Source: Azolla caroliniana
Lineage: Eukaryota; Plantae; Polypodiophyta
Direction of reading: 5' to 3'
Assembly (NCBI GenBank): GCA_043228905.1
Contig: JBHGNT010000008.1
Span: 13,516,001-13,580,000 of the forward strand
Length of the DNA stretch: 64,000 nucleotides
The notes under the pieces: generated by a model
What the model was told of the DNA's origin: nothing
Database searches by the model: none
Seen by the model: the letters and a program-made list of their open reading frames with translations, nothing else
Shown: one piece after another, positions 5,763-51,493 of the stretch
Numbering within the stretch: the stretch's first letter is position 1
Layout: each line of letters begins with the position of its first letter
Program-made: the position numbers and the translations under genes

Positions 5763-8700
5763 TTACATTTCATATATGACATCCATCACTTCCCAGAGAT
5801 ACGCCTTCCCCTTTAGACCCACCCGATGAACTAAAAGAGCTTTGTGAGGTCTCATCCTCATCGGCACTAGCAACCAATGCATTGTCCTCATCCAATTGTA
5901 ATCCAATGTCATCGTGATGATGAGACATACTCCTTGTTCGTCTCTATGTTGTGTCAACAAGCACATATGGTAGGTTCTCTTTTATTATCTTGATTGTAGT
6001 TTGCTTAGATGGCCTGTTTTGGTCAAGGAGAAGTCATACACGAGTATGTCCACATTATCAAGTGCTAGAGTAGACGTTGTCGCGAAAATACGACGAGGAT
6101 ACATGAACTTGAGGTAGGACCCCGGGGCCTCCGACCAGAGGATATCAGATTTGTATGTTTATGTACTAAGAATTACCCGAAAAATAAGAAAGATTGACAA
6201 ATTTCGTTAACAAAGGAAAAGAAAGATTACAATCAATCCCAAGATTGGGATTCAGAAGTTTAGGTTTACTAAGTTTAATAGAAAAGAAAAATTAGGGGTT
6301 TTGAAACTAAGATACGGATTCTATAGGAAAATTATATGGCTTTTGTAGGGAAAATTAGGGTTTTTGGCTTTCGTATGGAAATTAGGGTTTATGAGAGATA
6401 TGGCTTCCGTAGGGAAAATTAGGGTTTTTGGCTTCCATAAGGAAATTAGGGGTTATGAGAGATATGGCTTTCGTAAGGAAAATTAGGGTTTATGGCTTCT
6501 GTAGGGAAAATTAGGGTTTTTGAGTGTTATGGCTTCGATAAGATAAGGGAGCTAAGAAGGAAAAGAAAATAAAAATGGAGAGAGGATCTCAGTGTAGGAA
6601 AAAAAAATGGAATATATATGGAGTTCTCCGTTGGTCATATTCATAGCCTTTCCACTTTTTGTTGCATGGCCTCTACTTTTAGTTGCATAGCTTTTTCTTT
6701 TAGTTGCATGGATTTTTCTTTTAGTTGCATGTGACCGTCCACATGACCTTTACTTTAGTTTTCTTCACTTCATTTTAATTAGCCACATGATCTTGTTATC
6801 CATTCGGTTTGCGTCCAACCTCATTCGGTCGCCGATTGCTGCCGCCTCACCGGCTCCGCCGTCGGTTCCGGTTTGCTTACCGGTCAGTTTTCGATTTTGC
6901 TTACCGGCCAGTTTCAGTTTTGCTTACCGAACGGAACTGGCTGCTAAGAAAATTCGGAAACCGACCGGTAAGCAAACCCTAATTTCCTTACGGAAGCCAA
7001 AAACCCTAATTTTCCCTACAGAAGCCATATAATTTTCCTATCGAATCCATATCTTAGTTTCAAAACCCCTAATTTTTCTTTTCTATTAAACTTAGTAAAC
7101 CTAAACTTCTGAATCCCAATCTTGGGATTGATTGTAATCTTTATTTTCCTTTGTTAATGAAATTTGTCAATCTTTCTTATTTTTCGGTTAATTCTTAGTA
7201 CATAAACATACGAATTTGATATCCTCTGGTCGGAGGCCCCGGGGTCCTGCCTCAAGTTCACGTATCCTCGTCGTATTTTCGCGACAACGTGCTTGGTAGA
7301 TTCTTTCTTCTCCGCTTTCTACTTGTGCCGTTGACATCCTTAACCATCTCTAAAGAGTACTTCCTAGTAAATGCATCTTTGGAAGAGGTATGATACCAAT
7401 GAACCATAATAGACTTTACTTGATTGCCTTCATTTCAATGATTTTGGCAATCCAGAAGGGATGACCCAACTTATCACCCCCAGCTAATGTTGCAACCAAC
7501 ATCTAGATTGCCTTGCCACCTCACCTCTGCAACATGCGATAATCTTGGTCCCACGTAAATATCTCTTTGTCGTGGACGAACTATATTATTCAATTCAAGA
7601 TTATCTAGTGGTTTTAAAGGAGTTGTGCTCGCCATTGATGGGCCACCAAATGCCCATTCAAATTGATTTTGTAGTGGCTAGTACCTTGTAAAGTGGTTAT
7701 CTAATATTGTATGTTGATGATTAAAGAAGACATCCCACCAATCCACATCCTGATCAGCAACGTACTTTTTGGTTTGCTCAATATTTTTCTGTTTTTCCTT
7801 AAGGCACCGCATCCAATATATCTTTTGGTCTTCAGTTGAACTACCAACTACCAATCTTTTATGGTCATCATAGGGCATTTGCTCAACACCATAGATTATT
7901 GCATCTAGGAAATGCAATAAGAGCCTACATCCATCTTGTGGCTCCCATTGCGAACTAGATGAGTATTGTTTGGCATACAACATGGTCTGGTTGTGACTGA
8001 CCACACTTTTTTGGATGAGGAAGACGTGGTTAAAAATTATATTATTAAGCGCAGCAAGAACCCTACATCCAGTCCCATCATCATCCAAACAAAAGCATTT
8101 TGAAATCATATACTTCATCTAAATGTTGCACATCTGGCTTGGGGATATAATCTTCAGTGATCAACCTTGATAGAATAGGAAGTGTGAAAGCATCGCACCT
8201 CGCTAATTTCTTGGAGAACCTACTAAACATTTGATCTCTGTGATCATGTGTATGAACAACTAACAAGAAGTCGGCCTTAATCTTTTTGAAAATACCCTTG
8301 TCTACTAACATGTTAAAATAGCCAAACACAGTTGAGTTCTGGTTTTCTCTCGCCATGTTGTCAAGTTGCACGTATAGTACTGGTGGGAGTAAACCCTGCC
8401 AACTATGCAGAACTCTTTGCATGATTATCATTATAAGATTAGGGTCATTGTAAGATAAGTTAGGAACACTTGAGGCCTTATTGTCTGACAATAAAGAAGA
8501 CATCCTACTAAGTGCATCTGCACTAGGCATCCATCTCCAACATCGTTGGGCAACCTTCAAAAATGTGGCAAACAAGTTTTCTTCTGATCCATCCCATCTA
8601 TACTCAAGCACATATATCTTTCTGGCGATTGAAGCATTTTTTGACGATGGTGCATAGCTTTAGATCTTTCCAACGCCTGTTTTGTTGTAAAACAACTGTC

Positions 8701-9689
8701 TCATGGGCCAGTTTTGGCCTTAAGAAGACGTTAATATATCTTTCTTTCTTTCTTTCTCAATAAATTCTTATATTTTGTTATTTCTTCATTTGTTGTCCCA
8801 CTCTTTGCCATGCTTTTTAAACTCGCGCATATAGAACAAACACCCATCTGGACCTTGCGGAGTATGACCACATTGTTAAACTTCGATCTCCATAACAATT
8901 AAAATGTTGATATTGTATGTGAGGTACACTTTCCAATAACATGTCATGCTTATACGCTTGGTATACCTCATGACTAGTGAAGTTATTTGACAAATGTAAC
9001 CTTCTAGTGGTGGGCATAACATCACATTGCTTCGAGAAATATATCTCCATCCATCTAATGGCATGCCGCCCAATTAGACCCTTAGATGTAGATTTTGTAT
9101 TGTTGAAAGGTACCCACCATCCCTTAAGTAATCGATGTTGAATTCTTTGTAGCCTCATGTTCTTGATGCTATAGGCAATTTTAAAAGAAACTCGACAACT
9201 CTTCATAGTAAGTGAAAGGAAATATTCCACCTATTGAGAACATGACACTGCCAGATGATCCTTCACAAGTTGCATATTGGCAATCAAGAATGAATCTTGT
9301 TCATCGCCATTGAGAGACAAATACTTTTCTCGCAACCCCTACAAGTTTTCCTTTCCAAATTTTGATAGACAAAGGCTCCCACAACATACCTTGCGTATAT
9401 CAATTGCAATTTGGCGACCTGAGCATAGAAAATTATATCGTTTAACGCTCACTTGTCGAGGAACTCTTCGAAAATTTAGAGGCTTATTAACACGGTCGTC
9501 ATCAACATTCGAAAAACTAGACTCATCATGATCTGTATCTACTTTAATATTTCTTATTTTACTTAAGTTAAAAGGCTCTATCAAAAAAAGTGACGTCGAA
9601 CTTTGCTTTCGATCGTCGTTTGACTTTATATGGCACCATTTATTATTAACATGGTTATATTCCTCGATTGAGAATAACAAGTTATCCAA
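5763..9689 (-). pseudogene. Sola1-like DDD transposase pseudogene, interrupted by the TIR element
   Basis: Contains LYVQLDNMARENQN...FLLVVHTHDHRDQMFSRFS (LDN..ENKN / GHT...D type), an upstream Cys-rich region and CDVMP, and many stops and frameshifts. The frame reads KNLPSTSTLALDNVDILVYDFSLTK once 6078-7290 is removed. Confidence 0.7.
6078..7286. mobile_element. Non-autonomous 1.2-kb element with ~310-bp terminal inverted repeats, TGT...ACA ends and ACGT TSD
   Basis: 6078-6389 is the near-perfect reverse complement of 6974-7286. ACGT lies at 6074-6077 and 7287-7290. Confidence 0.92.
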
Positions 9690-10084: not shown

Positions 10085-13000
10085 ATGGAGTACTCTGAGC
10101 ACGAACGCAAACGAAGCTCCTACAGCAGCACAAAAACTTGGAGATCGACATTGCACCTTCAGAGCTACAACAGACGACCAATTCAATCCTCGTCCAAGCA
10201 TGTATCAGTTATATATTTATTTATTTATTTATTTTCCTTTCTGATAACTATCTGTAACTTTGGTGCCTATTCATCTTTCCCAAAAATCGAATAGGGTGAA
10301 GTCGTTGGCATCCCAAACAAGGATGTCTTGAAGATCGAGGTGTAGCAGCAAGTGTGTTTTTTATTGAAAAAATTTTGTATTACGGTTGATTTCTGCCTTT
10401 ACTAACGATTAGGGTTTGTGTTTTCCTTAAGTGGTTTAGGGTTTCTGATTACAAATTTCAGGTTACAAGTTGCTGGTTACCAATTTCTAATTACAAATTT
10501 CTGATTATTGTCGCAATGTGTTGTAATTTTGCACCAATTCCCATAACAAATTTTGATTAGGGTTTCTGATTTTTTAAGTGATTGATTTTTGATACATGTT
10601 GAAAAGGACAAATTACAAATTTCTGATTACTATCTCAAAGTGTTGTAATTTTGCACCAAATTCACATTAAAAATTCTATTTTTGCACCAACTTTGATTAC
10701 CGATTTTCTATTTCAGGTGGCTCGTTCCTCCCTATCCTAGAGTGTTGAACTTCCCAAAATTTTGCGAGACAAAGGAGAACGTACACAACATATATGGTAC
10801 GTTGCTTGAGGGTATTGACCCTGTTGTTCTAATAGATAGATTGATTAGTGATGTAGACTGGATGTCAGTATAGGAAGTGCCTAGAGTGAAATGCAAGGTC
10901 AAGCTCAAGCATGTACGATCGGACCTGAACGACGACTACATGAGACTGCACCAGAAAGTACATCAAGAGATCCTAGTCAACAACGAGTTGTCCATTTCAT
11001 TTGCTAGAGCTTTTGCATATGAGTATTGCAAAACACCGAAGGAATATCGTGACCCTGAAATGTACAAGGTAGCTTGGGCAATTTATGGTGAGGCATCGGT
11101 AGAAAGATGCCGGAAGATGGGGAGCTTGCAACAAAAAATGGCAAGATTTTGGAGCATGGCAGTTGATGATGCAACTGCCGACTCACAACAAGCCGGCAAG
11201 GATATGCCACACCTACACACAATGAAAGCCAATGTCGATGATACATGTGAGACATTGATTAGCTATATGCTAAAAAATGTCCATGAAGCTTGTGAGACAT
11301 TGGAGTTTTTAAAGACTGATTTAGAGAAAGCAACATTGGCTGCTGCGATGGAGAGCAAAGTCACTTTGGTAGTTACAACAATCAAAAATAAGATTCAGGT
11401 ACCTATTGTTTTGCTAGTATGTAATATGTTGTAAATAACTTGTACATGAAAATGTGTTACTGAGGCATTATCTGGAATAGGTTGCTCAACATGAGCTTGA
11501 AATTGAGGGGTCGCTGGATCCCTAGCAGAAAATTCAACTGAAGACAGAGATCTAGGTTCTTTCAATGAACCTGGACCTTCTTGGTGTAAATACTGTCCCT
11601 GATTACAATTTGGACAAGCTACAAGTAAGTTAACGATTCCTGTTTCTTGTTGTTGTATCTTCCTCATTAAGGAATAATTAATCGGTAAATTTCTCGGTTG
11701 CGTTGAAGGAACAATATTCCCATCAAGAATAGGTAGTTAGTTGCCTTCAGAAGCAACTACATTTTGTGGAGGGGATGGTAAGGAGCAGACAAGAATTGAA
11801 CTTTAAAATTTTGCTCCCTTACCAAATGAAGGGGAACTAGGAACCGATATATTGACTGTTCAAGCATGTTGCATTGCTTGCGGATTGCGTGTAGAGGACA
11901 AATCTGCTACTCTGCTGGTTCACCTACACACATACCATATCGTTTGTTTTCAATATGCCTGTTGCATTGCTGCATTCTGTTTTGGGGATTGCAGTACAAC
12001 TCTCCCAGATGAGTGGAGAAAAGTAACAGGTAAAATTGTTGCTTGTGACCACAGTGTAGCTAATTAGTTACATCTTTGCTAATTAGGTAAGCCGTATAAA
12101 GTGTGGAAACTATTTAGCTGTTATGGTTGTAGTGTAGTAGCTAATTAGCTGACATATAGTTAATTAGCTACTACCATACTTTAGATGAGTAGCTAATTAG
12201 CTAAGTGGTAGCTAATTAGCTACTACCATACTTTAGGTGAGCAACTAATTAGCTAAGTGGTAGCTAATTAGCTACTACCATACTTTAGTACAATAGCTAA
12301 TTAGCTAAGTGGTAGATAATTAGCTACTACCATACTTTAGCTGAGTAGCTAATTAGCTAAGTGGTAGCTAATTAGCTACTACCATACTTTAGTTATAGTG
12401 GCTAATTAGCTAGTACCATACTTTAGTTGAGTAACTAATTAGCTAATTGGTATCTAATTAGCTACTAGCATACTTTAGTATAGTAGCTAATTAGTTGCTA
12501 CCATATTGAGAAAGAGTAGCTAGTTAGCTAAGTGGTAGCTAATTATCTAGTACCATACCTAGGCAAAGTAGCTAATTAGCTACTATCATAGTCTAGAAGA
12601 ATAGCTAGTTGGCTAAGATGTAGCCGAGTAGGTAATTAGCGACCATGTTGTTGTAGAATCTTGTGGATTAAGGAGGGCGCATGGTGTCCGGTGTTGATGA
12701 CGCTGCAATCGATGAGGAGGTAGCTGCCAACGTGGTTGAAAGTAAGAGTCATGCTATCATATCTCCTTCAGATCAGCTCCACTCTATTCTTTTGGAAGAT
12801 GGTACTAAATTAGGCAACGATGTGAAAAGCCATGAAATATTGGAAACAACATGTAAATCTGAGGTTCACAACAATAGTTTTTTTGAACACTTGATGCAAC
12901 ATTTCTTCGAATCCCAAAACCTTTATTCCACCCTAGCGAGCCCAACTACAGATAATGTCCAAACAAATCCCACTATACTAGAAAAGCTTGCGCAAGACAC

Positions 13001-14250
13001 AGCTGACGTGCAAGACGCTGCTAAGGTGATGGAAAGGTTGTCGGAGGAGGACACACTTGTGCAATGGGTCAAAGAAGCAAGGCTATATGGGCAACCAACT
13101 AGAAAAAGGCTGAAGAAGGGGCCACAATCGGGGACAAGACTAGTTACTCGGTCAAGGGGCTCTTTATTTGGAGCGAAATACTTATTAGTGGGATATGATT
13201 GTTAGCAATTTCCCTAGGTTTTATAAAGTTTTACTATAATCTATTTGGACAAATCAAACCTCATATTGGTTGTTTCTTGATCCACATTATGTAATGGAAC
13301 ATTATGATGTTTCTCCAAGATAATTATGTTCATGTTGTTCTATGATAGAAAATATTTCATGTTCATTATGTTGTTTTGTGAGACTGTTAGTTACTTTGTC
13401 AGTGTGAATATGTTAGTGTTTTCTGATGTTGCAAAGTCTAAAGGGTTTGAATCTATTGCTCCTAAGGTCCATGACAGTGTGGAAACTGTTGATGTTGTTG
13501 CGTGTTTAGAGGGCCACATCTTGAAAGTCGATGTAGCAATTGACATAAATGATCTGGTCATGCAAGTTGATCAAGCATGTTGCACAGATGATCTTATTTT
13601 GCAGGTAGATGTAACATGTGATATGAGTTGGCTAATATCGACCAGATCAGTATCTACATGCATCGACCTAATGACTAAGTCGACAATACAAAAGCACTAG
13701 AATGTGAAGCCAAGCCCAACACAATCGACCGGGGGTTTGAAGAGGAAATAAACACCAATTGTACCGACAGAACCTGAGTTGATTGAAATTGATCGTGTGC
13801 TACTAGTAATTGTTGTAACAGAGGCTCAGTTACAGGAATGGAAACCTAAACCATTAGAAGTCGAACGAAGAGCTTTGATCTTGGAGCTTGATAAAGTCCT
13901 CATGAGTGTGTGATATATGATACCAAGGAGGGACATAAATCAAATTCTAGAATGGGTTGTGCAATACTTTGATTTGTTTATTTGGAGTGAAAAACCACGT
14001 ACAAATGTGTAGAATTGTGTAGAAAGATTCTTCCCGAAGTGGCAACTACATTTCAAGGGTCAGTGGACTCAAGAGAATTATGAGTAGAAGGATGTTGCAA
14101 GATTCAAAAGACTTTCTGATTTTTGGGGCACTTGGCCAGATTATAATGCTGACAATACATTGATTCTGGATACAAAACATTTCGGGCATTATTTCAACAT
14201 TTGTAGATGTTATCTCATTCTACCCAATGAAATGCTTGAACACTAGGTGA
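10085..14250 (+). pseudogene. Decayed multi-exon gene divergent from the Sola1-like transposase, with a C-terminal FCP1/NIF-like HAD domain
   Basis: Exon-like ORFs at 10877-11434 and 12681-13205 with GT/AG boundaries. Reading through three stops, 13851-14246 gives RALILELDKVL...LEWVVQYFDLFIWS...KRLSDFWGTWPDYNADNTLILD. That all exons belong to one gene is inferred. Confidence 0.55.
12055..12640. repeat. Array of the palindrome TAGCTAATTAGCTA
   Basis: Dozens of copies, with higher-order units such as ctaccatactttag and gctaagtggtagc. Confidence 0.95.
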
Positions 14251-14793: not shown

Positions 14794-17700
14794 CTACAAA
14801 TTCCATGGCATACTGTTGTAAATACATTCATACACATTAGCACTAACTATGTCTACACCTGAGCAGCTATTGTATTGCGACATTGGGACATTGATGCACC
14901 TGACCAAATGAGAGTACATGTACGCCACTGGTTTGTCTTCTAATAGCCTATACACATAATTGTAATCATCTAGTCTTGCATAGAAAATACCTTCCATGTA
15001 GAATGTCTTGGTAGATACAACATTTCTCCAAGCACCTAATATATTCTGCGTTGCACACTATTTATTAACTGTGCACTTCAATATATAGAAATCAACTTCC
15101 TATGAATTGCCTTCTTCTGCATTTGCAACGAAATTATCCCCAACATTTAAGACATTACTCAGAGTATCTCCACGTCCTTGATATGTGAAGTCAACATTCT
15201 TTTCTGTTTCTCCATCAATTGCTTCCTTATCGTTCAATGTATGATACTCCCAATTCTGAATATATGATTTGTTTAAACAATACCTCCCATTTCCCTGCAC
15301 ACAATGGAAGCAAAAACAAGTGAATTCTCTTACTGCAATACAATGACCATCCAACCTAGAATAACCACGAACAACATGGAGAGATCGCAATTCAGGAATT
15401 CCTTAGCACTCCAAGGTCTTCTCCCTATTTTCTTCATCTATCTTTACTTCCCAAAATTCACGTTTGATATCTCGAACCTGCGAGGAATAAACACCATCTC
15501 CCTTTAGCTCTTAAAAATTCAACTACATGTGTTGCACAATTCATCTGCACACCATTTGCCTTTAGTTGTTCATGGGTAAGTGCCCACTTTATAACAACAC
15601 CTGCACCATCATGTTCACCTTTACCATGACCAGACCCAAAAAAATTCCATCTCATCTCCGAACTTGTTATAGAAGGATACCTCCCCACAAAATAAAGTGG
15701 ACGTCTAGCCTTGAATTGTGACGCAACTCCATTAGACCAAACGTTTAGCTAATAACCATTGTCAATGTAAGCTAAAACAATGTTGGACAAACAAGGTATC
15801 ATGCTTCTTATCATCAGAAATAAAAAAATGAATTACTTTTTTAGCATCACCTGAAACTCGAAAATATGTTATGTGCACAAAAATGGTTACCTACGCTGCG
15901 CTGAACACCAATGCATAGATTGAATTTCATTCTACTACTTGAAAGTATAATTCTCTGCGAAATCTACTACTGAGACTACTACATCATTTGGAAAATCAGA
16001 TATGCAAGTCTTAAACTGATGGGCTTGCCATGAATAAATGTGTGTTTAATGAAATTTCCTAGAGATACTACAAATAAAGACGCCAAATCCCTTGGTTTAA
16101 GCGACTTCCTAACTAGATCCTTTCTTTTACACACCTTTCCTTCGAAATTAGTGTCAACTGACCCAAATAACTTGACATAGATTAATATTTCACTACTCAA
16201 TTCATTTGGACACCACCTAAATCTACTAGGGCCACAATCTTGACATAAACCTATGACTATGGAAGATGGCCTCAGTTTTTCTCGGACACAATACTGAAGC
16301 TAAAAGACAACTCATGGAAGAGATAACATGCTCAGATTATTTATAGTGCTCTTGCGGGCTCGATAGACAAATTGGGCACTCACAATTGCAAAATGCATTA
16401 GTTAGGGAGGCGCTATGGTGATGTAGTAGATTAACTGAGTCCTTGTGAAAACCCATTTGTACATGGTTAATGCAACACCATGTGTATCAATCCTTTAAGC
16501 GTCTCACAAAGTGTGGCTTAAGAGACTAGAATGTTCCTAGTTGAACTTTGATATTTGGATGCATTTGCTTGAACCTAATAAATAAATCAACCTGCATAAT
16601 AACATGGACATACTGATTAGCTGATTTGCTATGCTCCAAACTTGTTATAGCAGCTAATAAGCTATTCCAGTAGCTAATTAGCTATCCTAGTAGCTAATTA
16701 GTTGGTAATAACTAAATTAGCTATTGGGAATACCTAATTAGCTAATCTAGTTACTAATTAGCTATCCTGGCCGTTAAATAGCTAGTAATAGTTAAATTAG
16801 CTAGTAAAAACTAATTAGCTATCTTGGCCGTTAAATAGCTAGTAATAGTTAAATTAGCTAGTAAAAACTAATTAGCTATTCGGAATAGTTAGTTAGCTAC
16901 TCTAGTAGCTAATTAGCTATCCTAGCAACTAATTAGCTAATTAGCTATGATTGGTAGCTAATTAGCTATTTTAGTAGCTAATTAGCTATCCTAGCAACTA
17001 GTTAGCTGGTAATAGCTAAATTAGCTATTGTGAATAGCTAGATAACTAATCTCGTAGCTAATTAGCTATAGTTATATGCAGCTAATTAGTTAGTTAGTTA
17101 GTTTGCTATTTAGGTAGGTAAATAGCTATGCTCATGTTCTTAAGTAGCTAATTAGTTATTCTGGTAGCTAATTTGCTATAGTCATAGGTAGCTAATTAGC
17201 TATTCTAGTAGCTAAATAACTATGATTGGTAGCTAATTAGCTATTCTGGTTGCTAATTAGCTATCTTGGCAGTTAAATAGTTGGTAATAGCTAAATTAGC
17301 TGGTAATAACTAATTAGCTATTGGGAATAGTTAATTAGATATTCTAGTAGCTAATTAGCTATAATCATAGACAGCTAATTAGCTATTTTGGTCGCTAAAT
17401 AGCTATGATTGATAGCTAATTATCTATCCTAGAAACTAATTAGCTGGTAATAGCGACATTAGTTATTGTGAATAGCTAGTTAGCTAATCTGGTAGCTAAT
17501 TAGCTATAGGTATATGTAGCTAATTAGCTAGTTAGCTAGTTAGCTATTCTGGTAGCTAATTAGCTAGTCATACACAACTAATTAGCTATTTTGGTAGCTA
17601 AATAGCTATGCTCATATTCTTAGGTAGCTAATTAGTTATTCTGGTAGTTAAATAGCTATAGTCAGAGGCAACTAATTAGCTATTCTGGTAACTAATTAGC

Positions 17701-18779
17701 TGAGAGTGCTAGCTAATTTGCTATGGTTGGTAGTTAATTGGCTATTCTAGTAGCTAATTAGCTATCCTAGTAGCTAATTATCTGGTAATAACTAAATTAG
17801 CTATTAGGAATAGCTAGTTAGCTATTCTGGTAGCTAGTTAGCTATAGTCATACACAATTTATTAGCTATTTTGGTAGCTAAATAGCTATGCTCATATTCT
17901 TAGGTAGCTAGTTACCTATTCTAGTAGGGGATTAGCTATTCTGGTAGCTAATTACCGATAGTCATAAGCAGCTAATTAGCTAGTCTAGTAGCTAATTAGC
18001 TATTATGGTAGCTCAATGGCTATGTTCGATATTTTGTGGTAGCTAATTAACTATTCTGGTAGTGAACTAGTTGGTAATAGCTAAATTAGCTATTGGCAAT
18101 CACAATTAAGCTATTACTAGTACCTAGTTAGCTATGGTCATATTCTGAGGTAGCTAGTTAGCTATGGTCATATTCTAAGGGAGTTAATTAGCTATTATGG
18201 CAGCTAATTAGCTATTACTGGTAGCTAGTTGGCTATGGTCATATTCTGAGGTAGCTAATTAGCTATTCTGGTATGTTCATATTCAGAGGTTGTTAATAAG
18301 CTAACTAACTATGCTCAAAAGTCAAAACAAATGTTGAGATAAATGTAAATACCTTAGGTACATCAAGAAGATGAATGGCATACTCCTCGTATTGACTCCT
18401 TCCAACACGTTTCTTGCATAAATCCTTCTTATTGGGTGAAACCCTACTCTCATTAGTCCAAAATATTGTGATTATATTGGAGATTATTTAGTAGTATAGA
18501 TGTTATGTTTGCATTAAGACCATCACAATCAACTAACTCCTTTATCGATGGATCATTTAATATTCCATAAAGTACTACCTTCTTGTCTTCATTGCTGATG
18601 TGCTTGGTTTGAACACTAAAATAGTCGACAACCTTTCTCTCTATGATAGTAGTCTCAGTACTTCCATTCTCAGTCATAGTTAGACCTATATCGCAACCAA
18701 TACTATCTTTACCTTTAGTCAGTGTGGCTTTTGTATCCTTCAACAATTGACGATGTTTTCTTTTTTCTTTCCTGCCCAA
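14794..18779 (-). pseudogene. Sola2-like DDD transposase pseudogene with intron 16592-18352
   Basis: Motifs VVDFAENYTF..NEIQSMHW, FFISDDKKHD, WSNGVASQFK and WNFFGSGHGKGEHDGAG. A GT-AG phase-0 intron joins HLLDVPK to VDLFIRFKQ. Confidence 0.75.
16615..18310. repeat. 1.7-kb TAGCTAATTAGCTA palindrome array filling the transposase intron
   Basis: Directly visible, and confined between the splice sites at 16592 and 18352. Confidence 0.95.
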
Positions 18780-19207: not shown

Positions 19208-22200
19208 TGTTGGGATTTTCGGTCCCTCCGGATGGGATGTCCGGAGATGAATGACGGCAAGCCCGGTTGCGGTTACGGAACCGGAGGATGAAGAGTACCC
19301 GGCATGAAGCCGGATGAAGAGTACCCGGCTACGGAGTCGGATGATGTAGACCCCGGCTACGGAGCCGGATGATGAAGACCCCGGCTACGGAGCCGGATGA
19401 TGAAGACCCGGCTGCCGAGCCGGATGATGAAGACCCCGGCTACGGAGCCGGATGATGAAGACCCGGCTACGGAGCCGGATGATGAATGTACCCGGAGAGA
19501 GATCCGGATGCGGGGACATATTTGTGAATATGTTTTGCCAAGGGCCCTGGAGGCTATATTTGTAAATAGCCCTAAAGTCATATGTGTATAAATATGACTT
19601 AGGGCAAACAGTTTTATGTTGCTACTCATTTTTCTGTTTTTCCACTCTAGAGGAGTGAAGAGAGAGCAGCCGTGAGAGAGATAGAGCGTGAGAGAGGAAG
19701 AGGTCGACGCCTCTGTGTAATACCGCCGCCTGTGGCGAGGACAGCGAGCTCAAGGTCGTCGCCTTGCAACTCGCCATTGTATATTTCTCTGTGCATAGTT
19801 TTGGTTTGGAGTCTTGCACTCCCGTGGTTTTTCCCGTATAGGGTTTTCCACGTTAATCCCTGTGTTATCGTGTCTTTCTCTGTGTTTCCTATTTTCTGCT
19901 GCATTGATTCGTGATTTCTCGGTTGTGGCCGAACGGTGAAGGTGAATCGGAGCGTGGATTCGTCACAAGTGGTATCAGAGCGACGGCAGTGCAGAAAATG
20001 GAAGGCGGCAGCAGCGGGCAGCCGGGGATGATGGTGCTGAATGCGCAGAACTACGCCGACTGGAAGATCAAGATGGAGGATCTTCTGATTGTTCGGGACC
20101 TGTACGAACCGATTGACAGGTCGGAAATACCGAAGGGGGTACTTGAGACGGAATGGAGGCTTCTGAACCGGAAAGCCGTTGCAACCATTCGGCAATACGT
20201 CGACGTGAGCGTTCTACAACATGTGGCGAACGACACCAACGCATACGAGATGTGGCGGAAGCTGTCGGGCCTCTACGAGAGGAAGAATGCGTTGAACCGG
20301 ACCTCCCTGATGAGGAAGATAGTGAACCTCAAGTACCGGGACGGCGAGAGTATGGTGGAACACGTAAGCACGTTCATGGGATTCGTGAACCAGCTTGCGG
20401 CGATCAAGTTCCCGCTGGAGGATGCAATGCAAGCCATCATTCTGATGTGTACATTGCCGGAAAGCTGGGAGAACTTGGTGGTGACTCTCAGCACCTCCTG
20501 CACCGAAGATAACTTGTCTCTACAAACGGTAAAGACAAGTATTTTGAACGAAGAAGCGCGTCGGAGAGATAAAGAACCGGCCTCCGACCCGAAGGCGCTG
20601 CTTACCGAATCGGATCGGGGAAGACAATGGAGGTACGTGCCGGATGGGAAATGAAGGTACGTGCCGGATTGCCGGCATAGGAGACGTGTGGTTGACAACC
20701 TCGACCGGATGCAAAATGCTGCTGAAGGATGTTCGACACGTTCCGGAGGTTCGATTGAACCTGATTTCGGCCGGGAGGCTAGACGATGAAGGCTACACGG
20801 GTAGCATCCGGAACGGTGTCATGAAGTTCAGCAAAGGGAGCCTGATAGTGGCTCGGGCCCAGAAAGTCAACACACTGTACCTTATGAATGCCCGGTTGTG
20901 TCCGGAAGAGTTGAACGTGGCAGCCGACACTGCCGGTGAGCTGTGGCACAAGAGACTGTGCCACATGAGTGAGAAGGGGATGAAGAGGCTTGCAGAAGAC
21001 AACCTTATCCCAATGAAGCATGTGCATCTGGAGAAGTGCACCGATTGCCTGGCCGGTAAGCAGAACCGAGCCTCCTTCCACTCAAGGCCACCGACGAGAC
21101 GTAGCGCACCATTGGAGTTGGTGCACATTGATGTGTGTCAGGTAGAAACGAAGTCACATGGCGGAGCCCAGTACTTCGTAACATTCATAGATGATCACAG
21201 CCGGAAGCCGTGGACGGCACCGTTGAAGACAAAGGACCAAGTATTGTCCGTCTTCAAAGAACTCCACGCGAGAGTGGAAAGGGAATCCGGCAAGGAGCTG
21301 AAAGCGATACGAGCGGATAACGGAGGGGAATACCGGGGGCAGTTCGAGGAGTACTGTCGCTCGAAGGGAATCCGGCTCGAGTTTACTGTGCCGAAGACGC
21401 CGGAACTGAACGGGCTGGCCGAGAGGATGAACCGGACCATAATGGAGAGGGTCCGGAGTATGCTGGCGCATGCGAAATTACCCAAGGGGTTTTGGGCTGA
21501 GGCAATGTCGACGGCGACATACGTGATAAACAGATCACCCTCAGTACCTTTGGATGGAGACACGCCGCAGAGAGTGTGGACCGGTAGGGAAGTATCCTAC
21601 CGGCATCTGAAGGTGTTCGGGTGTCTCGCATATGTGCATGTGGCAAAGGACCGGAGAGGAAAGCTAGATCCAAAGACCCGGCCATGCATATTCCTCGGTT
21701 ACGGCAACGACGAGTTCGGCTACCGAGTATGGGACCCGGTCGACAAGAAGATATTCAGGAGTCGTGATATCATCTTCATGGAGGACAAGACACTCGCCGA
21801 CTGGGAGTCGGAGAAGAAGATGAAGAGCTCAAAGTCGACCGGTGAGAATCAACTCTACGAAGAGCAGTCCCGACCGGCAAGGGACCGGTTAGCACTCGAG
21901 GATCCGGCCGAAGACGGTGAAGAAACAGAACTGGCCGAGGAAGATGAAACTGATACCGGAACCGGCCCCGATCCCGAAATGGATTCGGATGAAGAGGAAA
22001 CGGAGGAGCCGGTTACCGAAGCCCCGGAACGGAGATATCCTCTAAGAGAGAGAAGGGCCCCCCGGAGATTTCCGGAACCAGAGCACGTGCTGCTAACCGA
22101 CGAGGGGGAGCCGGAGAATTTTGAAGAAGCAGAGCTTGACACACATAGCCGCAGGTGGTTAAGTGCCATGCAGCAGGAGATGGATTCCCTGCATGAGAAC

Positions 22201-24394
22201 CACACATATGAACTTGTGGAGTTGCCGAAAGGAAAGCGGGCACTTCGAAACAAGTGGGTGTTCAAGCTGAAACCGGGAGATGCCGGAAACCCCCCGAGAT
22301 ACAAAGCCAGGATCGTGGTGAAGGGGTTCCAGCAAAAGAAGGGCGTCGACTTCGACGAGATATTTGCCCCGGTAGTGAAGATGACCTCCATCCGGACGGT
22401 GCTGAGCATAGCGGCAAGCATGGACCTCGAGGTAGAACAGATGGACGTGAAGACGGCATTCCTTCACGGTGACCTCGAAGAAGAGATCTACATGCAGCAA
22501 CCGGAAGGATTCGAGAAGAAAGGAAAGGAGCACCTGGTATGCCGGTTCAAGAAGAGCCTCTACGGTCTGAAGCAGGCTCCCCGGCAATGGTACCGGAAGT
22601 TCGACTCCTTCATGACAGACGAAGGGTACCACAAAACGCAGACCGATCACTGCGTGTTTGTGAAGAAGTTCGAAGGAGGAGACTTTCTAATACTCCTCCT
22701 GTACGTGGACGACATGTTGATCGTCGGACGAGACCAGGTCAAGATACGGATGCTGAAGAAGGCTCTTCACCGAACCTTCTCAATGAAGGACCTGGGTCCG
22801 GCGAGGCAAATACTAGGGATGCACATTATCCGGGACCGGAAGAAGAAGCAGTTGTGGTTGTCACAGGAGAAGTACGTGACAAAGGTGCTTCACCGGTTCA
22901 ACATGTCGGAAGCAAGACCGGTCGGGTCAACACTCCCGGCAAACTGCAAGCTGTCCAGGAAGCAAAGCCCCAAGACAAAGGCTGAGAAGGAGGTCATGAT
23001 GAAAGTACCATATGCCTCTGCCGTCGGGAGCTTGATGTACGCAATGGTGTGTACCCGACCGGACATAGGATATGCAGTCGGAGTGGTGAGCCGGTACATG
23101 AGCAATCCCGGCAAAGAGCACTGGAACGCGGTCAAATGGATACTCCGATACCTAAAGGGCACTTCGAACATGTGCCTCCGATTCGGCTCCGGTAAGCCCG
23201 AACTCGATGGATTTACCGATTTGGACATGTCGGCTGATGCGGATACCAGCCGGTCCACATCAGGGTATGTGATGACGTATGCAGGGGGAGCTGTTTCGTG
23301 GCAGTCGAGGCTGCAGAAGACGGTTGCGTTGTCAACCACGGAGGCGGAGTACATGGCGGCTGTTGAAGCCGGCAAGGAAATAATATGGATGAAGGAATTC
23401 ATTAGAGAGCTCGGTATCCGGTAGGAGGAGTACCGGCTCTACTGCGATAGTCAGAGTGCCATCCACCTTGCGAAGAACGCGGCCTACCATTCCCGGACGA
23501 AACACATCCAGCGTAGATACCACTGGATCCGGGAAAGGATAGAAGACAAGGAGTTCGTGCTGACGAAGATCCACACGGACGAGAACAGGTCGGATATGCT
23601 GACCAAGGTGCTCACACCCGACAAGCTGGAAGCATGCCGGAAGAGGATCGGATTGGAGAGACATCCCATGCCGAAGTGAAGGGGGAGTTTGTTGGGATTT
23701 TCGGTCCCTCCGGATGGGATGTCCGGAGATGAATGACGGCAAGCCCGGTTGCGGTTACGGAACCGGAGGATGAAGAGTACCCGGCATGAAGCCGGATGAA
23801 GAGTACCCGGCTACGGAGTCGGATGATGTAGACCCCGGCTACGGAGCCGGATGATGAAGACCCCGGCTACGGAGCCGGATGATGAAGACCCGGCTACGGA
23901 GCCGGATGATGAATGTACCCGGAGAGAGATCCGGATGCGGGGACATATTTGTGAATATGTTTTGCCAAGGGCCCTGGAGGCTATATTTGTAAATAGCCCT
24001 AAAGTCATATGTGTATAAATATGACTTAGGGCAAACAATTTTATGTTGCTACTCATTTTTCTGTTTTTCCACTCTAGAGGAGTGAAGAGAGAGCAACCGT
24101 GAGAGAGATAGAGCGTGAGAGAGGAAGAGGTCGACGCCTCTGTGTAATACCGCCGCCTGTGGCGAGGACAGCGAGCTCAAGGTCGTCGCCTTGCAGCTCG
24201 CCATTGTATATTTCTCTGTGCATAGTTTTGGTTTGGAGTCTTGCACTCCCGTGGTTTTTCCCGTATAGGGTTTTCCACGTTAATCCCTGTGTTATCGTGT
24301 CTTTCTCTGTGTTTCCTATTTTCTGCTGCATTGATTCGTGATTTCTCGGTTGTGGCCGAACGGTGAAGGTGAATCGGAGCGTGGATTCGTAACA
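19208..24394 (+). mobile_element. Young Ty1/copia (Tork/Tnt1-like) with LTRs 19208-19967 and 23690-24394
   Basis: TG..CA LTRs nearly identical apart from repeat copy number. TSD AACAG at 19203-19207 and 24395-24399. Met PBS at 19970-19981 and PPT gaagggggag at 23678-23687. Confidence 0.97.
19998..23678 (+). pseudogene. Copia gag-pol (gag, IN, RT, RNaseH) with an internal deletion/frameshift and a premature stop
   Basis: Contains LWHKRLCH, RADNGGEY, QMDVKTAFLHG, LYVDDML and STTEAEY. The CCHC knuckle and protease DSG motif are missing near 20630. TAG at 23422-23424 interrupts RNaseH. Confidence 0.93.
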
Positions 24395-24970
24395 AACAGT
24401 GGCAGATGATGCTTGGAACGCATAGTGATGACAACTGAGAGTACAGTGGCGGCAATGGAGAAGGAGTGAACTCCATCGGATCGAAAAGTGGTAGCAATAC
24501 ACGATCGAATAGTAGCGGCAACTAAATGTAGAATGATGGCAATGGATGAGTGGACTCCGTCAAATAAAAAAGTGGCAGCAATCCAGGACTGAATAGTAGC
24601 GGCAACTGAGTGTAGAATGATGGCAATGGAGGATTGAACTCCGTCAGATCGAACAATGGCAGGTGATGCTTGGAACGCACAGTGACGGCAACTGAGAGTA
24701 GAATGGCGGCAGTGGAGAAGGAGTTAAATCCATCGGATCGAAAAGTGGCAACAATATACAACCTTCACAGTAGCGGCAACCGAGTGTAGAGTGGCGGCAA
24801 GGGAGGAGTGAACTTGGCAGATTATGCTTGGACTGAACAATGGCGGAAACTGAGTGTAGAATGGCAGCAATGGAGGAGTGAAATCTGTTGGATCGAACAA
24901 TGGCAAATGATACTTGGACCACACAGTGTCGATAACTGAGTGTAGAATGGCGGTAATGGAGGAGTGGACC
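24395..24970. repeat. Degenerate ~70-bp tandem repeat, right part
   Basis: Same unit as 19010-19207, about 8 copies. Confidence 0.85.
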
Positions 24971-49020: not shown

Positions 49021-51493
49021 TGTTGTGAAAATCCGTCACTATGTGCGGATCGTGAGACGGAACCGCCGGGGTTCTGGACTAGAAGGATTTAGAGCAACAT
49101 GTACAACACAAGCAAGTTTTAAGCATAAGACAAGTGGGAGAGACAAATCATTAGTTTATTGCAAAAGAAAATCGATTCTTTATAATTTCAGAATCGTGTT
49201 ACAATGGGTTGGGTATGGAAATGAGAGATTAATTTTTCAAAGAAAGGAGCCAACAACCATGCAAGGAGTGGTCCGATATGAATACGAGAGATAATTTTTT
49301 ACCACAAAGATCGAGTAATCAAAGCTAGGAGTTTGATATCAATATGCGAGATAATTTGTTTCTCGAATCCAAGAGGGAAAAAGAAAGAAGGGAAAAAAAA
49401 TAAAATTAGGAGGGAAAATATGGGACATATATTGAGCTCCTTATTGAGCCTCCACCCCAATGTTACTTTGCATGCCCACTTTTAGTTGGCTAGCCTCTAT
49501 TTTTAGTTGCATGGCCTCTGCTTTTAGTTGCCTGCTTCCATTTTTAGATGCATGCCTTTTACTTTTAGTTGCATGGCCTTGGCTTTTGGTTGCATGCGAT
49601 TGTCTGTATAATTTGGCCAAATTACACAATCATCCATAAAGTTTAGCCCGTGCGCAATCCGTACGTGCGTCGCAACCAAACCGTAGACGCGTCTGCGTGC
49701 AAAAGTCCCGATCGTGTAGTAGTGTACGCATCCACGCATGCGCACGTCCCGACCGCGCTGTACTGTACGGATCCACACGCGTGCACGTCCAACCCGCACC
49801 GTGTACGCATCTGCGCACAAAAGTCTCGACCGCGCCGTAGTGTATGCGTCCATGTGCTCGTCCGAAACGTCCAAGTGTACGCCTGAAACTTGCACATGCG
49901 CGTACATCCGAAAACGTCCACGCGGCCATGCACACTCACGTACGCCCAAAGCGTTAACACAATCATGCATACATGCGTATGCCCGAAGTGTGCACACCAC
50001 ACAATGTAACCCAAGTCACCTTGAACATTCTGTGCTCCACACATTGATAGAATGAATATGTTTTGGTTTCCCTTATATATTCTGGGTTCCCATGTTGTCC
50101 TATCTATGTGGGATATCTCATAGTTTTGTCTTTTCTTTTCTTTTCTTCAAACTTCACACTCACATAAATTGATACTTGTTTATCTGTTTTATGCGTAGTA
50201 AAATACGCTATAGAGCTCTTGAACACATCTATCTTTCCATATCAATATATTAAGCTAATCGTAATTAATTATTTTACTAGTTTTCATATCGTGTCTGAAA
50301 AACCACACGACATTCACCCCCACCAAACCTGCACATCCACCGGTAGGTGCCAATTGTGGTGAGATTCCTCTTTTTTAATTATTCTTCTTTAACCTCGATG
50401 TTTGAGGATACATCATCTAGAGCTTCGATCTCAAGATTTGGGTCTTGTCTTCTCTTAAAGAACTTGATCCTCTTCCTTGCTATCGGCAAAGCAACTCGAG
50501 TTCCATCTAACTCCGCTAAAAAATAGGTTGCATTGCTTTCTATTTTCTTAACCATATACAGGCCAAACCATCATGTTGCGAACTTTCGAGCAGTGCTATA
50601 TTGATTATCGAGACTACTATCATAGACAAGAACCCAATCTCCTTGGCTTTTGGTTGCATGCGATTGTCCGTATAATTCGGCCAAATGACCCAATCATCTA
50701 TAAGTTTATCCCGTGCGCAATCCGTACGTGCATCGCAACCAAACCATAGACGCGTCCGCGCGCAGAAGTCCCGAACACGTAGTAGTGTACCCATCCACGC
50801 ATGCGCGCGTCCCGACCACGCCGTAGTGTACGCATCCACGCACGCGCGCGTCCAACCCGCACCGTGTATGCATCCGCACGCAAAAGTCTCGACCGCGCCG
50901 CAGTGTACGCATGCACGCATGCGCACGTCCCGACCGCGCTGTACTGTACGGATCCACGCGCGTGCGCGTCCAACCCGCACCGTGTACACATCTGCGCACA
51001 AAAGTCTCGACCGCGCCGTAGTGTATGCGTCCATGCGCTCGTCCGAAATGTCCAAGTGTACGCCTGAAACTTGCACACGCGCGTACATCCGAAAACGTCC
51101 ACGCGGCCATGCACACTCACGTACGCCCAAAGCGTTAACACAATCATGCATACATGCGTATGCCCGAAGTGTGCACACCACACAATGTAACCCAAGTCAC
51201 CTTGAACATTCTGTGCTCCACACATTGATAGAATGAATATGTTTTGGTTTCCCTTATATATTCTGGGTTCCCATGTTGTCCTATCTATGTGGGATATCTC
51301 ATAGTTTTGTCTTTTCTTTTCTTTTCTTCAAACTTCACACTCACATAAATTGATACTTGTTTATCTGTTTTATGCGTAGTAAAATACGTTATGAAGCTCT
51401 TGAACACATCTATCTTTCCATATCAATATATTAAGCTAATCATAAATAATTATTTTACTAGTTTTCATATTGTGTATGGAAAACCACACGACA
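49021..51493 (-). mobile_element. Internally deleted gypsy: full 3' LTR 49021-50312, PPT, ~330 bp of internal sequence, partial 5' LTR 50640-51493
   Basis: TG..CA ends, 4-bp TSD ACGG at 49017-49020 and 51494-51497, and PPT complement ttcacccccacc at 50313. CG-rich U3 repeats differ in copy number between the LTRs. Confidence 0.88.

What the first reader, a model, noticed from the sequence alone, without database searches (positions are those of the whole stretch)
6074..7290. TIR element made from two inverted copies of a gypsy LTR end, with its own 4-bp TSD
Seen: ~310-bp TIRs with TGT..ACA ends flanked by ACGT. Deleting the element plus one ACGT restores the host transposase frame, so ACGT is a true TSD. 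Seen: the TIR start tgtcgcgaaaatacg...ggaccccggggcctccgaccagaggat resembles the U5 end of the LTR at 49021 (tgttgtgaaaatccg...ggaaccgccggggttctggactagaaggat). The interior ttttagttgcatggcctct repeats (6655-6740) recur in that LTR (49490-49595). That LTR group also makes ACGT/ACGG TSDs. A small inverted repeat (6870-6897 vs 6949-6978) sits at the junction, as expected of fold-back. Established: Ginger/GingerRoot DNA transposons derive from gypsy integrases and have TGT ends with 4-bp TSDs. Inference: this is either a one-off aberrant cDNA with two U5 att ends, or a mobile LTR-derived MITE that bridges retro- and DNA transposition.
Basis: partly seen in the sequence, partly recalled or inferred. 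Interest (0 to 1): 0.76.

Follow-up and report, generated by a model that had tools for sequence, protein, structure and literature searches.

The report
Fold-back retrotransposon ends mimic DNA transposon
A 1.2-kb insertion that looks like a DNA transposon is two back-to-back copies of one end of a common retrotransposon; three other single-copy insertions of this kind sit in the same genome, so they are likely recurring copying accidents that the retrotransposon's integrase inserted, not a family that moves on its own.

Summary
Observation confirmed. The element (6078-7286) has 313-bp inverted arms (12 mismatches) and a true ACGT TSD (16 of 19 host paralogues show the empty site). It is the R-U5 part of a high-copy Phygy-like gypsy LTR folded back so both ends are U5; the LTR at 49021 is only a sister family. 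Its junction is single-copy and no integrase-only partner was found, so it is no MITE or Ginger. It is also not a lone accident: three more U5-capped fold-backs with unique junctions and non-palindromic, empty-site-supported TSDs (ACGG, GCGT, GCGG) occur elsewhere, one with arms 99-100% identical to the youngest LTRs. None contains U3/TATA sequence. Two U3-U3 insertions with TSDs are built differently. Best reading: minus-strand strong-stop DNA likely self- or cross-primed at short inverted repeats, and integrase inserted the product by two U5 ends (0.55). Rivals: collapse of an integrated inverted dimer; post-insertion template switch, which this copy's palindromic TSD would favour.

The parts
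6074..6077 (.). Left target-site duplication ACGT (NCGN target of the parent family)
   Evidence: empty sites in 16 of 19 host paralogues
6078..6390 (-). Left arm: U5 end of the parent gypsy LTR, read inward
   Evidence: maps to positions 811-1118 of a 1118-nt LTR of an intact element; in intact elements this tip is followed by TCTT and the primer-binding site
6391..6869 (-). LTR interior present in the left arm only (includes the ttttagttgcatg repeats at about 6648-6739); missing from the right arm by a jump between two GGTTT copies (6386-6390 and 6870-6874)
6870..6930 (-). Three units of the GC-rich, CCGG-cored tandem repeat of the LTR, where the left arm ends
6926..6934 (.). Fold-back point (strand switch); position approximate because the repeats are periodic
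   Evidence: spanned by a short-read contig
6931..6978 (+).
   Evidence: alignment; hairpin -35.6 kcal/mol against -12.3 +/- 2.9 for 200 mononucleotide shuffles
6974..7286 (+). Right arm: second U5 end, 12 mismatches to the left arm in 313 nt
7287..7290 (.). Right target-site duplication ACGT
7291..8659 (-). Host repeat, upstream part: decayed multi-copy coding element with DUF7869 at 8081-8659
   Evidence: 369 first-look candidates
5774..6073 (-). Host repeat, downstream part (tested stretch), contiguous with 7291 in empty paralogues
49021..51493 (-). Internally deleted element of a sister gypsy family with ACGG TSD; related to, but not the source of, the arms

Best explanation
The element is the R-U5 part of a gypsy LTR fused to an inverted copy of itself, likely made during reverse transcription and likely inserted by the gypsy integrase using two U5 ends. 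Shown: both ends are exact U5 tips, U3 and TATA are absent, the TSD is a clean 4-bp NCGN, the copy is unique, and three more such products with other junctions exist. Inferred: minus-strand strong-stop DNA, which spans only R-U5 and is single-stranded, primed on itself or on a second strong-stop DNA at a short inverted microhomology (the CCGG-cored repeats; AATTTTT in the C1 copy) and was copied back to the U5 tip; a second round of priming or reciprocal extension gave a linear duplex with two U5 ends; integrase joined both ends in concert. It is a dead-end by-product at about 1 in 100 insertions, not a self-amplifying transposon.
For: Four U5-capped fold-backs at single target sites, all with different junctions (each junction hit only its own locus among 243 loci held; the extra C1 hit is a 99.94% duplicate of the same site with flanks): window ACGT; C1:24687007-24687515 ACGG, host gag frame continuous; C21:10984551-10986248 GCGT, host RT matches a paralogue without gap; C4:8735146-8744875 GCGG, a complex whose right end is a fold-back, host paralogue shows a 4-nt gap. 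Two flanks match by chance at 0.079 (75 flanks). None of five U5-U5 structures holds U3/TATA (scores 58-80 against 544 for a solo LTR). Repeat-zone junctions with U5 outward: 7 sites among 50 listed of 51 pattern hits; mirror pattern: 0 of 25 in the repeat zone, judged from the matched letters. C1 arms are 99-100% identical to the youngest LTRs, whose own pair differs by 2 in 215: fold-back and insertion are the same age. In C4 the fold-back arm shares no derived site with its neighbour LTR in 629 columns. C21 arms differ in their inner part, so they had two templates. Like-end insertion also occurs with U3: C7:11421699-11424408 (ACGC, host frame kept) and C4:393007-397730 (GCGG). Two rearrangements that look genomic carry host flank into the inversion and ignore LTR ends (C5; C18). 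Strong-stop self-priming is known in vitro for HIV-1 (PMC6088434, passages); one-ended integrations lose the normal TSD (PMC5041404, passages).
Against: No cDNA intermediate was observed. How a snap-back hairpin becomes a two-ended duplex is inferred; the HIV review calls self-primed products dead ends and says they were not detected in endogenous reactions (PMC6088434). The transcription start, hence the R boundary, was not mapped. The window copy has no close sibling (next 86-89%; 90.6-92.5% over 215 nt) and its palindromic TSD gives a 9-nt re-entry homology, so a later genomic switch is not excluded for this copy. Four other fold-back junctions lack a verified TSD: C15:8.30 Mb failed the empty-site test; C21:12.64 Mb and C22:3.12 Mb show a short fold-back followed by unrelated sequence with no paralogue among held loci; C15:16.75 Mb is a short inversion. 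The C4 age test rests on about 6 private changes. Numbers are small (4 against 2), and only one of two U3 tip variants was surveyed (271 of 312 listed).
Confidence: 0.55

Rival explanations
1. Post-insertion template switch: a normal solo LTR was already in place; during genome replication or repair the new strand folded back in the repeats, copied back to the U5 tip and re-entered at the U3 tip through the LTR's own terminal homology, replacing U3 and keeping the TSD.
For: U3 and U5 tips share a 5-nt terminal match, 9 nt with the palindromic ACGT of the window copy. The window arms have no close sibling. Genomic fold-backs do occur in this family (C5, C18). Young solo LTRs exist.
Against: It predicts U3-outward products as often as U5-outward ones: 0 of 25 control hits against 7 sites. 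It needs base-exact re-entry four times, three at non-palindromic TSDs. The two clear genomic cases include host flank. It predicts mirror arms, but C21's inner arms are different LTR variants. C1 and C4 fold-backs are as old as their insertions.
Confidence: 0.2
2. Collapsed dimer: two full cDNAs were end-joined at their U3 ends, integrated by the two outer U5 ends, and the long palindrome then lost its centre by deletion between short repeats.
For: The mirror case exists: LTRs end-joined at U5 with 4+24 nt lost and inserted by two U3 ends (C7, arms 92%), and a similar U5-U5 joint inside the C4 complex. Junction microhomologies fit deletion as well as priming.
Against: No intact U3-joined pair and no centrally collapsed U3-U3 element with a TSD was seen (320 U5 tips and 271 U3 tips listed). 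All U5-U5 breakpoints fall in R-U5, none in U3 or the 5.7-kb interior. Non-identical arms (C21 93%, C15 86%) also lack U3.
Confidence: 0.2
3. Mobile LTR-derived MITE moved by a gypsy integrase or a Ginger-like transposase.
For: TIRs with TGT..ACA ends and a GC-rich 4-bp TSD as in Ginger1 (PMC2836005).
Against: Every junction is single-copy; no sibling above 89%; no integrase-only element between U5 tips less than 20 kb apart. DNA searches score only 40 candidates, so a diverged sibling is not fully excluded.
Confidence: 0.03

Closest known systems
Phygy non-chromovirus Ty3/gypsy clade (Neumann et al. 2019, PMC6317226, passages read) - parent family
   Same: 4-bp TSD with NCGN preference, short element with polyprotein filling the interior, RT-RH-INT order.
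   Different: The finding is not an LTR element or solo LTR: no U3, PBS, PPT or ORF, and its repeats are inverted. Phylogenetic placement of the parent was not tested.
Ginger1 DNA transposons (Bao et al. 2010, PMC2836005, parts 2-3 of 5 read)
   Same: TIRs with TGT..ACA ends, GC-rich 4-bp TSD, ends of the gypsy-integrase type. The paper proposes that such TIRs came from two LTRs in opposite orientation.
   Different: No transposase, no autonomous partner, no second copy; the TIR is still 80-100% identical to a living LTR family.
GingerRoot (PMC6839031, passages read)
   Same: Plant TIR element linked to gypsy integrase.
   Different: GingerRoot has 6-bp TSDs, TA termini and 100-150-bp TIRs around a transposase; none of this is met.
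Self-primed minus-strand strong-stop DNA of HIV-1 (review PMC6088434, passages read)
   Same: Fold-back copy of R-U5 made by hairpin priming.
   Different: Described in vitro as a dead end that nucleocapsid suppresses; here the inferred products are integrated with normal TSDs.
Aberrant one-ended retroviral integrations (PMC5041404, passages read)
   Same: An aberrant end can be joined to viral DNA in either orientation; resembles the fold-backs without TSD (C15, C21:12.64 Mb, C22).
   Different: There the host junction is mostly deleted or carries long duplications; here both ends are exact and the TSD is 4 bp.

Membership tests
Ginger1 (non-autonomous derivative) | TIRs with TGT termini and 4-bp GC-rich TSD | tested here: met
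Ginger1 (non-autonomous derivative) | Autonomous partner: integrase-like transposase without RT/RH between the same TIRs | tested here: not met
   Outward-facing U5 pairs under 20 kb among 320 of 324 listed NCGN-flanked tips: 2 true fold-backs, 3 chance neighbours, none with an integrase-only interior. The same tips bound elements with RT, RH and INT.
Ginger1 (non-autonomous derivative) | Several dispersed copies of one structure | tested here: not met
GingerRoot | 6-bp TSD and TA..TA termini | tested here: not met
   4-bp TSD, TG..CA; definition from PMC6839031
MITE | Short, non-coding, TIR and TSD | tested here: met
MITE | Many uniform copies | tested here: not met
   junction single-copy among 40 scored of 418; five fold-backs of 509-1698 nt, all different
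Phygy (parent element) | 4-bp TSD with NCGN preference | tested here: met
   324 of 495 U5 tips are preceded by CGN; the rest include PBS-side tips and CpG-decayed flanks
Phygy (parent element) | Short interior filled by a Ty3/gypsy polyprotein (RT-RH-INT), no extra ORF | tested here: met
   5717-nt interior; RVT_1, RT_RNaseH, Integrase_H2C2, rve
Phygy (parent element) | No chromodomain | tested here: inconclusive
   no Chromo hit in 6 ORFs scanned, but the integrase C-terminus was only partly covered
Phygy (parent element) | Clusters with REXdb Phygy domains in a tree | not testable with these tools
   no REXdb sequences held
Solo LTR / TRIM | Complete U3-R-U5, or direct repeats with PBS and PPT | tested here: not met
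   no U3/TATA; repeats inverted

The most novel reading that the evidence does not exclude
A living gypsy family routinely turns strong-stop DNA into TIR-bounded, integrase-competent cDNAs with two U5 ends, once even capping a gag-pol interior (C4 complex). These are natural snapshots of the missing first step from LTR retrotransposon to Ginger-type DNA transposon, lacking only excision.
Probability: 0.3. Interest if true: 0.75.

Novelty: new variant of a known kind. Interest (0 to 1): 0.5.

Why it matters
Bao et al. call the chain from LTR retrotransposon to integrase-type DNA transposon unclear and suggest two LTRs that happen to face apart. Here such TIR-and-TSD structures arise repeatedly from one family, about once per 100 insertions, and like-end insertion works with U5-U5 and U3-U3. 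If the strong-stop origin holds, a product regarded as an in-vitro dead end is integrated in nature, and it can be tested in extrachromosomal DNA. In practice such copies would be annotated as MITEs or TIR transposons, and each is a ready hairpin that would yield siRNA against its family if transcribed (inference). The limit: none has moved again, so no bridge to DNA transposition is shown.

Tried and rejected
Candidate pairs rejected: C12:13930090/13936712 (solo LTR with its own GCGG TSD beside another LTR); C21:11668477/11676611 (solo LTR plus fragment); C2:15145976/15162493 (flanks differ; not fetched); C21:9097490 inverted pair (left arm and flank duplicated at C21:8.74 Mb, flanks not contiguous in 14 paralogues); C15:8.30 Mb (left tip lacks 19 nt; flanks not contiguous in 11 paralogues); C1075 copy (same site as C1, 99.94% with flanks); C18:14069099 (LTR runs normally); 8 of the 16 junction regions fetched held no family U5 arm at the hit and one more (C7) only a weak U3-like match. 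The DNA empty-site test for C21:10.98 Mb failed (0 of 14 paralogues covered the site); the protein frame was used instead. A strict local alignment of the tip to 49022-49121 was not significant (726 of 1000 shuffles as good; start off by one); the global test was. A single long-gap pattern could not be run, so tips were listed and paired by eye. Other samples: no listed loose end showed a U3-type end at this site, and no listed contig bridged the right junction by 31 letters a side; 27 and 733 rows were not shown: inconclusive. No RNA holder listed. Both strands of the repeat zone fold (plus -24.2, minus -19.0), so hairpin strength does not explain the U5 bias. Literature: searches (listings and abstract starts) showed no report of TSD-flanked U5-U5 LTR fold-backs; passages of PMC11899658, PMC8090852 and PMC12789967 were not relevant; the library lacks most subscription papers. 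No supplements were opened; those of PMC6317226 hold the Phygy PBS type.

Full report
Observation. The window holds a 1209-nt element at 6078-7286 with 313-nt inverted arms (12 mismatches, no gap), TGT..ACA ends and ACGT on both sides; the symmetry ends at the ACGT. Because ACGT is palindromic, I tested the empty site: 16 of 19 paralogues of the host repeat have both flanks with one 4-mer between them, and the host frame continues across it. The host is a decayed multi-copy element whose only Pfam match is DUF7869. A short-read contig spans the central junction without difference at depth 26.6 (the run may be the source sample).

What it is made of. The first 860 nt match a high-copy repeat (1481 first-look candidates, 40 scored, best 75-85%). 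That repeat is an LTR of about 1.0-1.4 kb. The tip that starts the element is followed in intact copies by TCTT, a primer-binding site and gag-pol, so it is the U5 end; that the site fits tRNA-Trp is recalled, not tested. The parent has a 5717-nt interior with RT, RNase H and integrase, and 324 of 495 U5 tips are preceded by CGN, the target rule given for Phygy (PMC6317226, passages). The left arm runs from the U5 tip into the CCGG-cored tandem repeats near LTR position 355, switches strand at about 6930, copies about 48 nt of repeat, jumps between two GGTTT copies and runs out to a second U5 tip. The LTR at 49021 is a sister family: the tip alignment beats 2000 of 2000 shuffles, but blastn finds only the interior repeats.

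Is it a family? No. The whole junction matches only itself (40 scored of 418); the arm's nearest neighbour is the other arm at 97%, then 86-89% (40 scored of 1025). Among 320 listed of 324 NCGN-flanked U5 tips (27 belong to one tandem array), paired by eye, five outward-facing pairs lie within 20 kb: the window, C1, and three chance neighbours with unlike flanks; none encloses an integrase-only ORF.

Is it a lone accident? No. Three further U5-capped fold-backs sit at single target sites with non-palindromic TSDs. C1:24687007-24687515 is 509 nt, ACGG on both sides, in a gag frame that continues across one ACGG; its junction lies at a 7-nt inverted microhomology with one change. C21:10984551-10986248 is 1698 nt, GCGT on both sides, in an RT frame that matches a paralogue without gap. 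C4:8735146-8744875 is a complex: an LTR of another subfamily (86%) joined at its U5 end to an inverted full-length element whose 5' LTR folds back at a perfect palindrome to a new U5 tip, all inside GCGG with a 4-nt gap in a host paralogue. Two flanks agree by chance at 0.079. Each junction is unique among the 243 loci held; the second C1 hit is the same site on a small contig. Four more fold-back junctions have no verified TSD.

Evidence on timing and mechanism. C1's arms differ from the youngest LTRs by 0-3 changes in 214-293 nt, and one such element's own LTR pair differs by 2 in 215, so fold-back and insertion coincide. In C4 the fold-back arm shares no derived site with the LTR it adjoins in 629 columns, though that LTR has about 6 private changes. 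In C21 the outer arms are near-identical but the inner parts are different LTR variants, and in C15 the arms are 86% alike, which points to two templates. None of five U5-U5 structures contains U3 or the TATA motif at LTR position 223. The junction pattern gave 7 repeat-zone sites with U5 outward (50 of 51 hits listed) and the mirror pattern none in 25. Among 271 listed of 312 tips of one U3 variant, two U3-U3 insertions have matching TSDs, but they are built otherwise: two whole LTRs end-joined at U5 with 4+24 nt lost (C7, ACGC, host frame kept) and a rearranged element with a U3 tip inserted at an NCGN inside its own interior (C4:393007, GCGG). Two cases that look like genomic fold-backs (C5, C18) carry host flank into the inversion, unlike the clean cases.

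How it most likely works. Inferred: after RNase H removes the template, minus-strand strong-stop DNA (R-U5 only) primes on itself or on a second strong-stop DNA at a short inverted repeat and is copied back to the U5 tip; reciprocal extension, or new tRNA priming on the exposed primer site, gives a linear duplex with two U5 ends; integrase inserts both ends at NCGN. Self-priming is known in vitro for HIV-1 but is described as a dead end and was not detected in endogenous reactions (PMC6088434, passages). One-ended integrations mostly lose the normal TSD (PMC5041404, passages), so clean TSDs favour concerted insertion. I give this 0.55. Collapse of an integrated U3-joined dimer (0.2) also has integrase using two U5 ends, so that step stands at about 0.75. 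A post-insertion switch (0.2) is most plausible for the window copy itself, which has no close sibling and whose palindromic TSD offers 9 nt of re-entry homology; reads from other samples could not decide it.

Comparison and novelty. The element looks like a Ginger1 derivative or MITE in its ends but fails the defining tests of partner and copy number. GingerRoot differs in TSD and termini (PMC6839031, passages). Bao et al. list gypsy-to-Ginger descent as one scenario and call the chain of events unclear (PMC2836005, parts 2-3 of 5). Eight paper searches showed no report of TSD-flanked U5-U5 fold-backs in their listings; the library is incomplete. An unreviewed note on another piece of this genome (e1-10621211) describes an insertion with two inverted LTRs of unrelated families; I did not test it. 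Verdict: a new variant of aberrant LTR-retrotransposon insertion, recurrent at about 1% of insertions (3-4 in about 300), not mobile; interest 0.5.

Noticed in passing
G000:C2:7902446-7917134 (L213-L215): Tandem array of a 329-bp unit made of CCGG plus the U5 tip of this LTR family; 27 listed copies, units 99.7-100% alike: a young LTR-derived satellite.
   Followed up: partly
G000:C7:11421699-11424408 (L217): Two whole LTRs (92% alike) joined head to head at U5, inserted by two U3 ends with ACGC TSD in a copia integrase frame.
   Followed up: yes
G000:C4:393007-397730 (L218): U3-U3 bounded complex with GCGG TSD containing an inverted interior fragment that ends at ACGC followed by a U3 tip, as autointegration would give.
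   Followed up: partly
G000:C18:7886420-7886600 (L222:2120-2300): 43-bp U3-U3 mini palindrome with about 66 bp of host flank mirrored on both sides; looks like a genomic template switch at a solo LTR end.
   Followed up: partly
G000:C5:13893572-13912082 (L220, L221): Large inverted duplication of an element together with its flank; centre joins interior position 2766 to LTR position 75.
   Followed up: partly
G000:C15:16747050-16747200 (L104): LTR end plus TCTTTGG followed by a short inverted repeat-zone segment and a second partial LTR: internal deletion with a small inversion.
   Followed up: partly
window 8081-8659 (-) and host repeat 5774-9230: DUF7869-coding multi-copy repeat (369 candidates) with DDE-like motifs; transposon superfamily not identified. 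Four copies on C14 lie 7924 bp apart in tandem.
   Followed up: no
window 12056-12634 and 16618-18273: Two arrays of palindrome-rich TAGCTAATTAGCTA repeats, 65-75% alike in both orientations; possibly the two ends of one large TIR element around ORFs at 12672-13700.
   Followed up: no
window 49021-51493: Sister-family element with ACGG TSD reduced to one full LTR, 330 nt of 3' interior and a partial second LTR.
   Followed up: partly
window 19208-24395: Copia element with LTRs 91% alike overall (99% over 300 nt) and a 958-aa pol ORF at 20548-23424.
   Followed up: no
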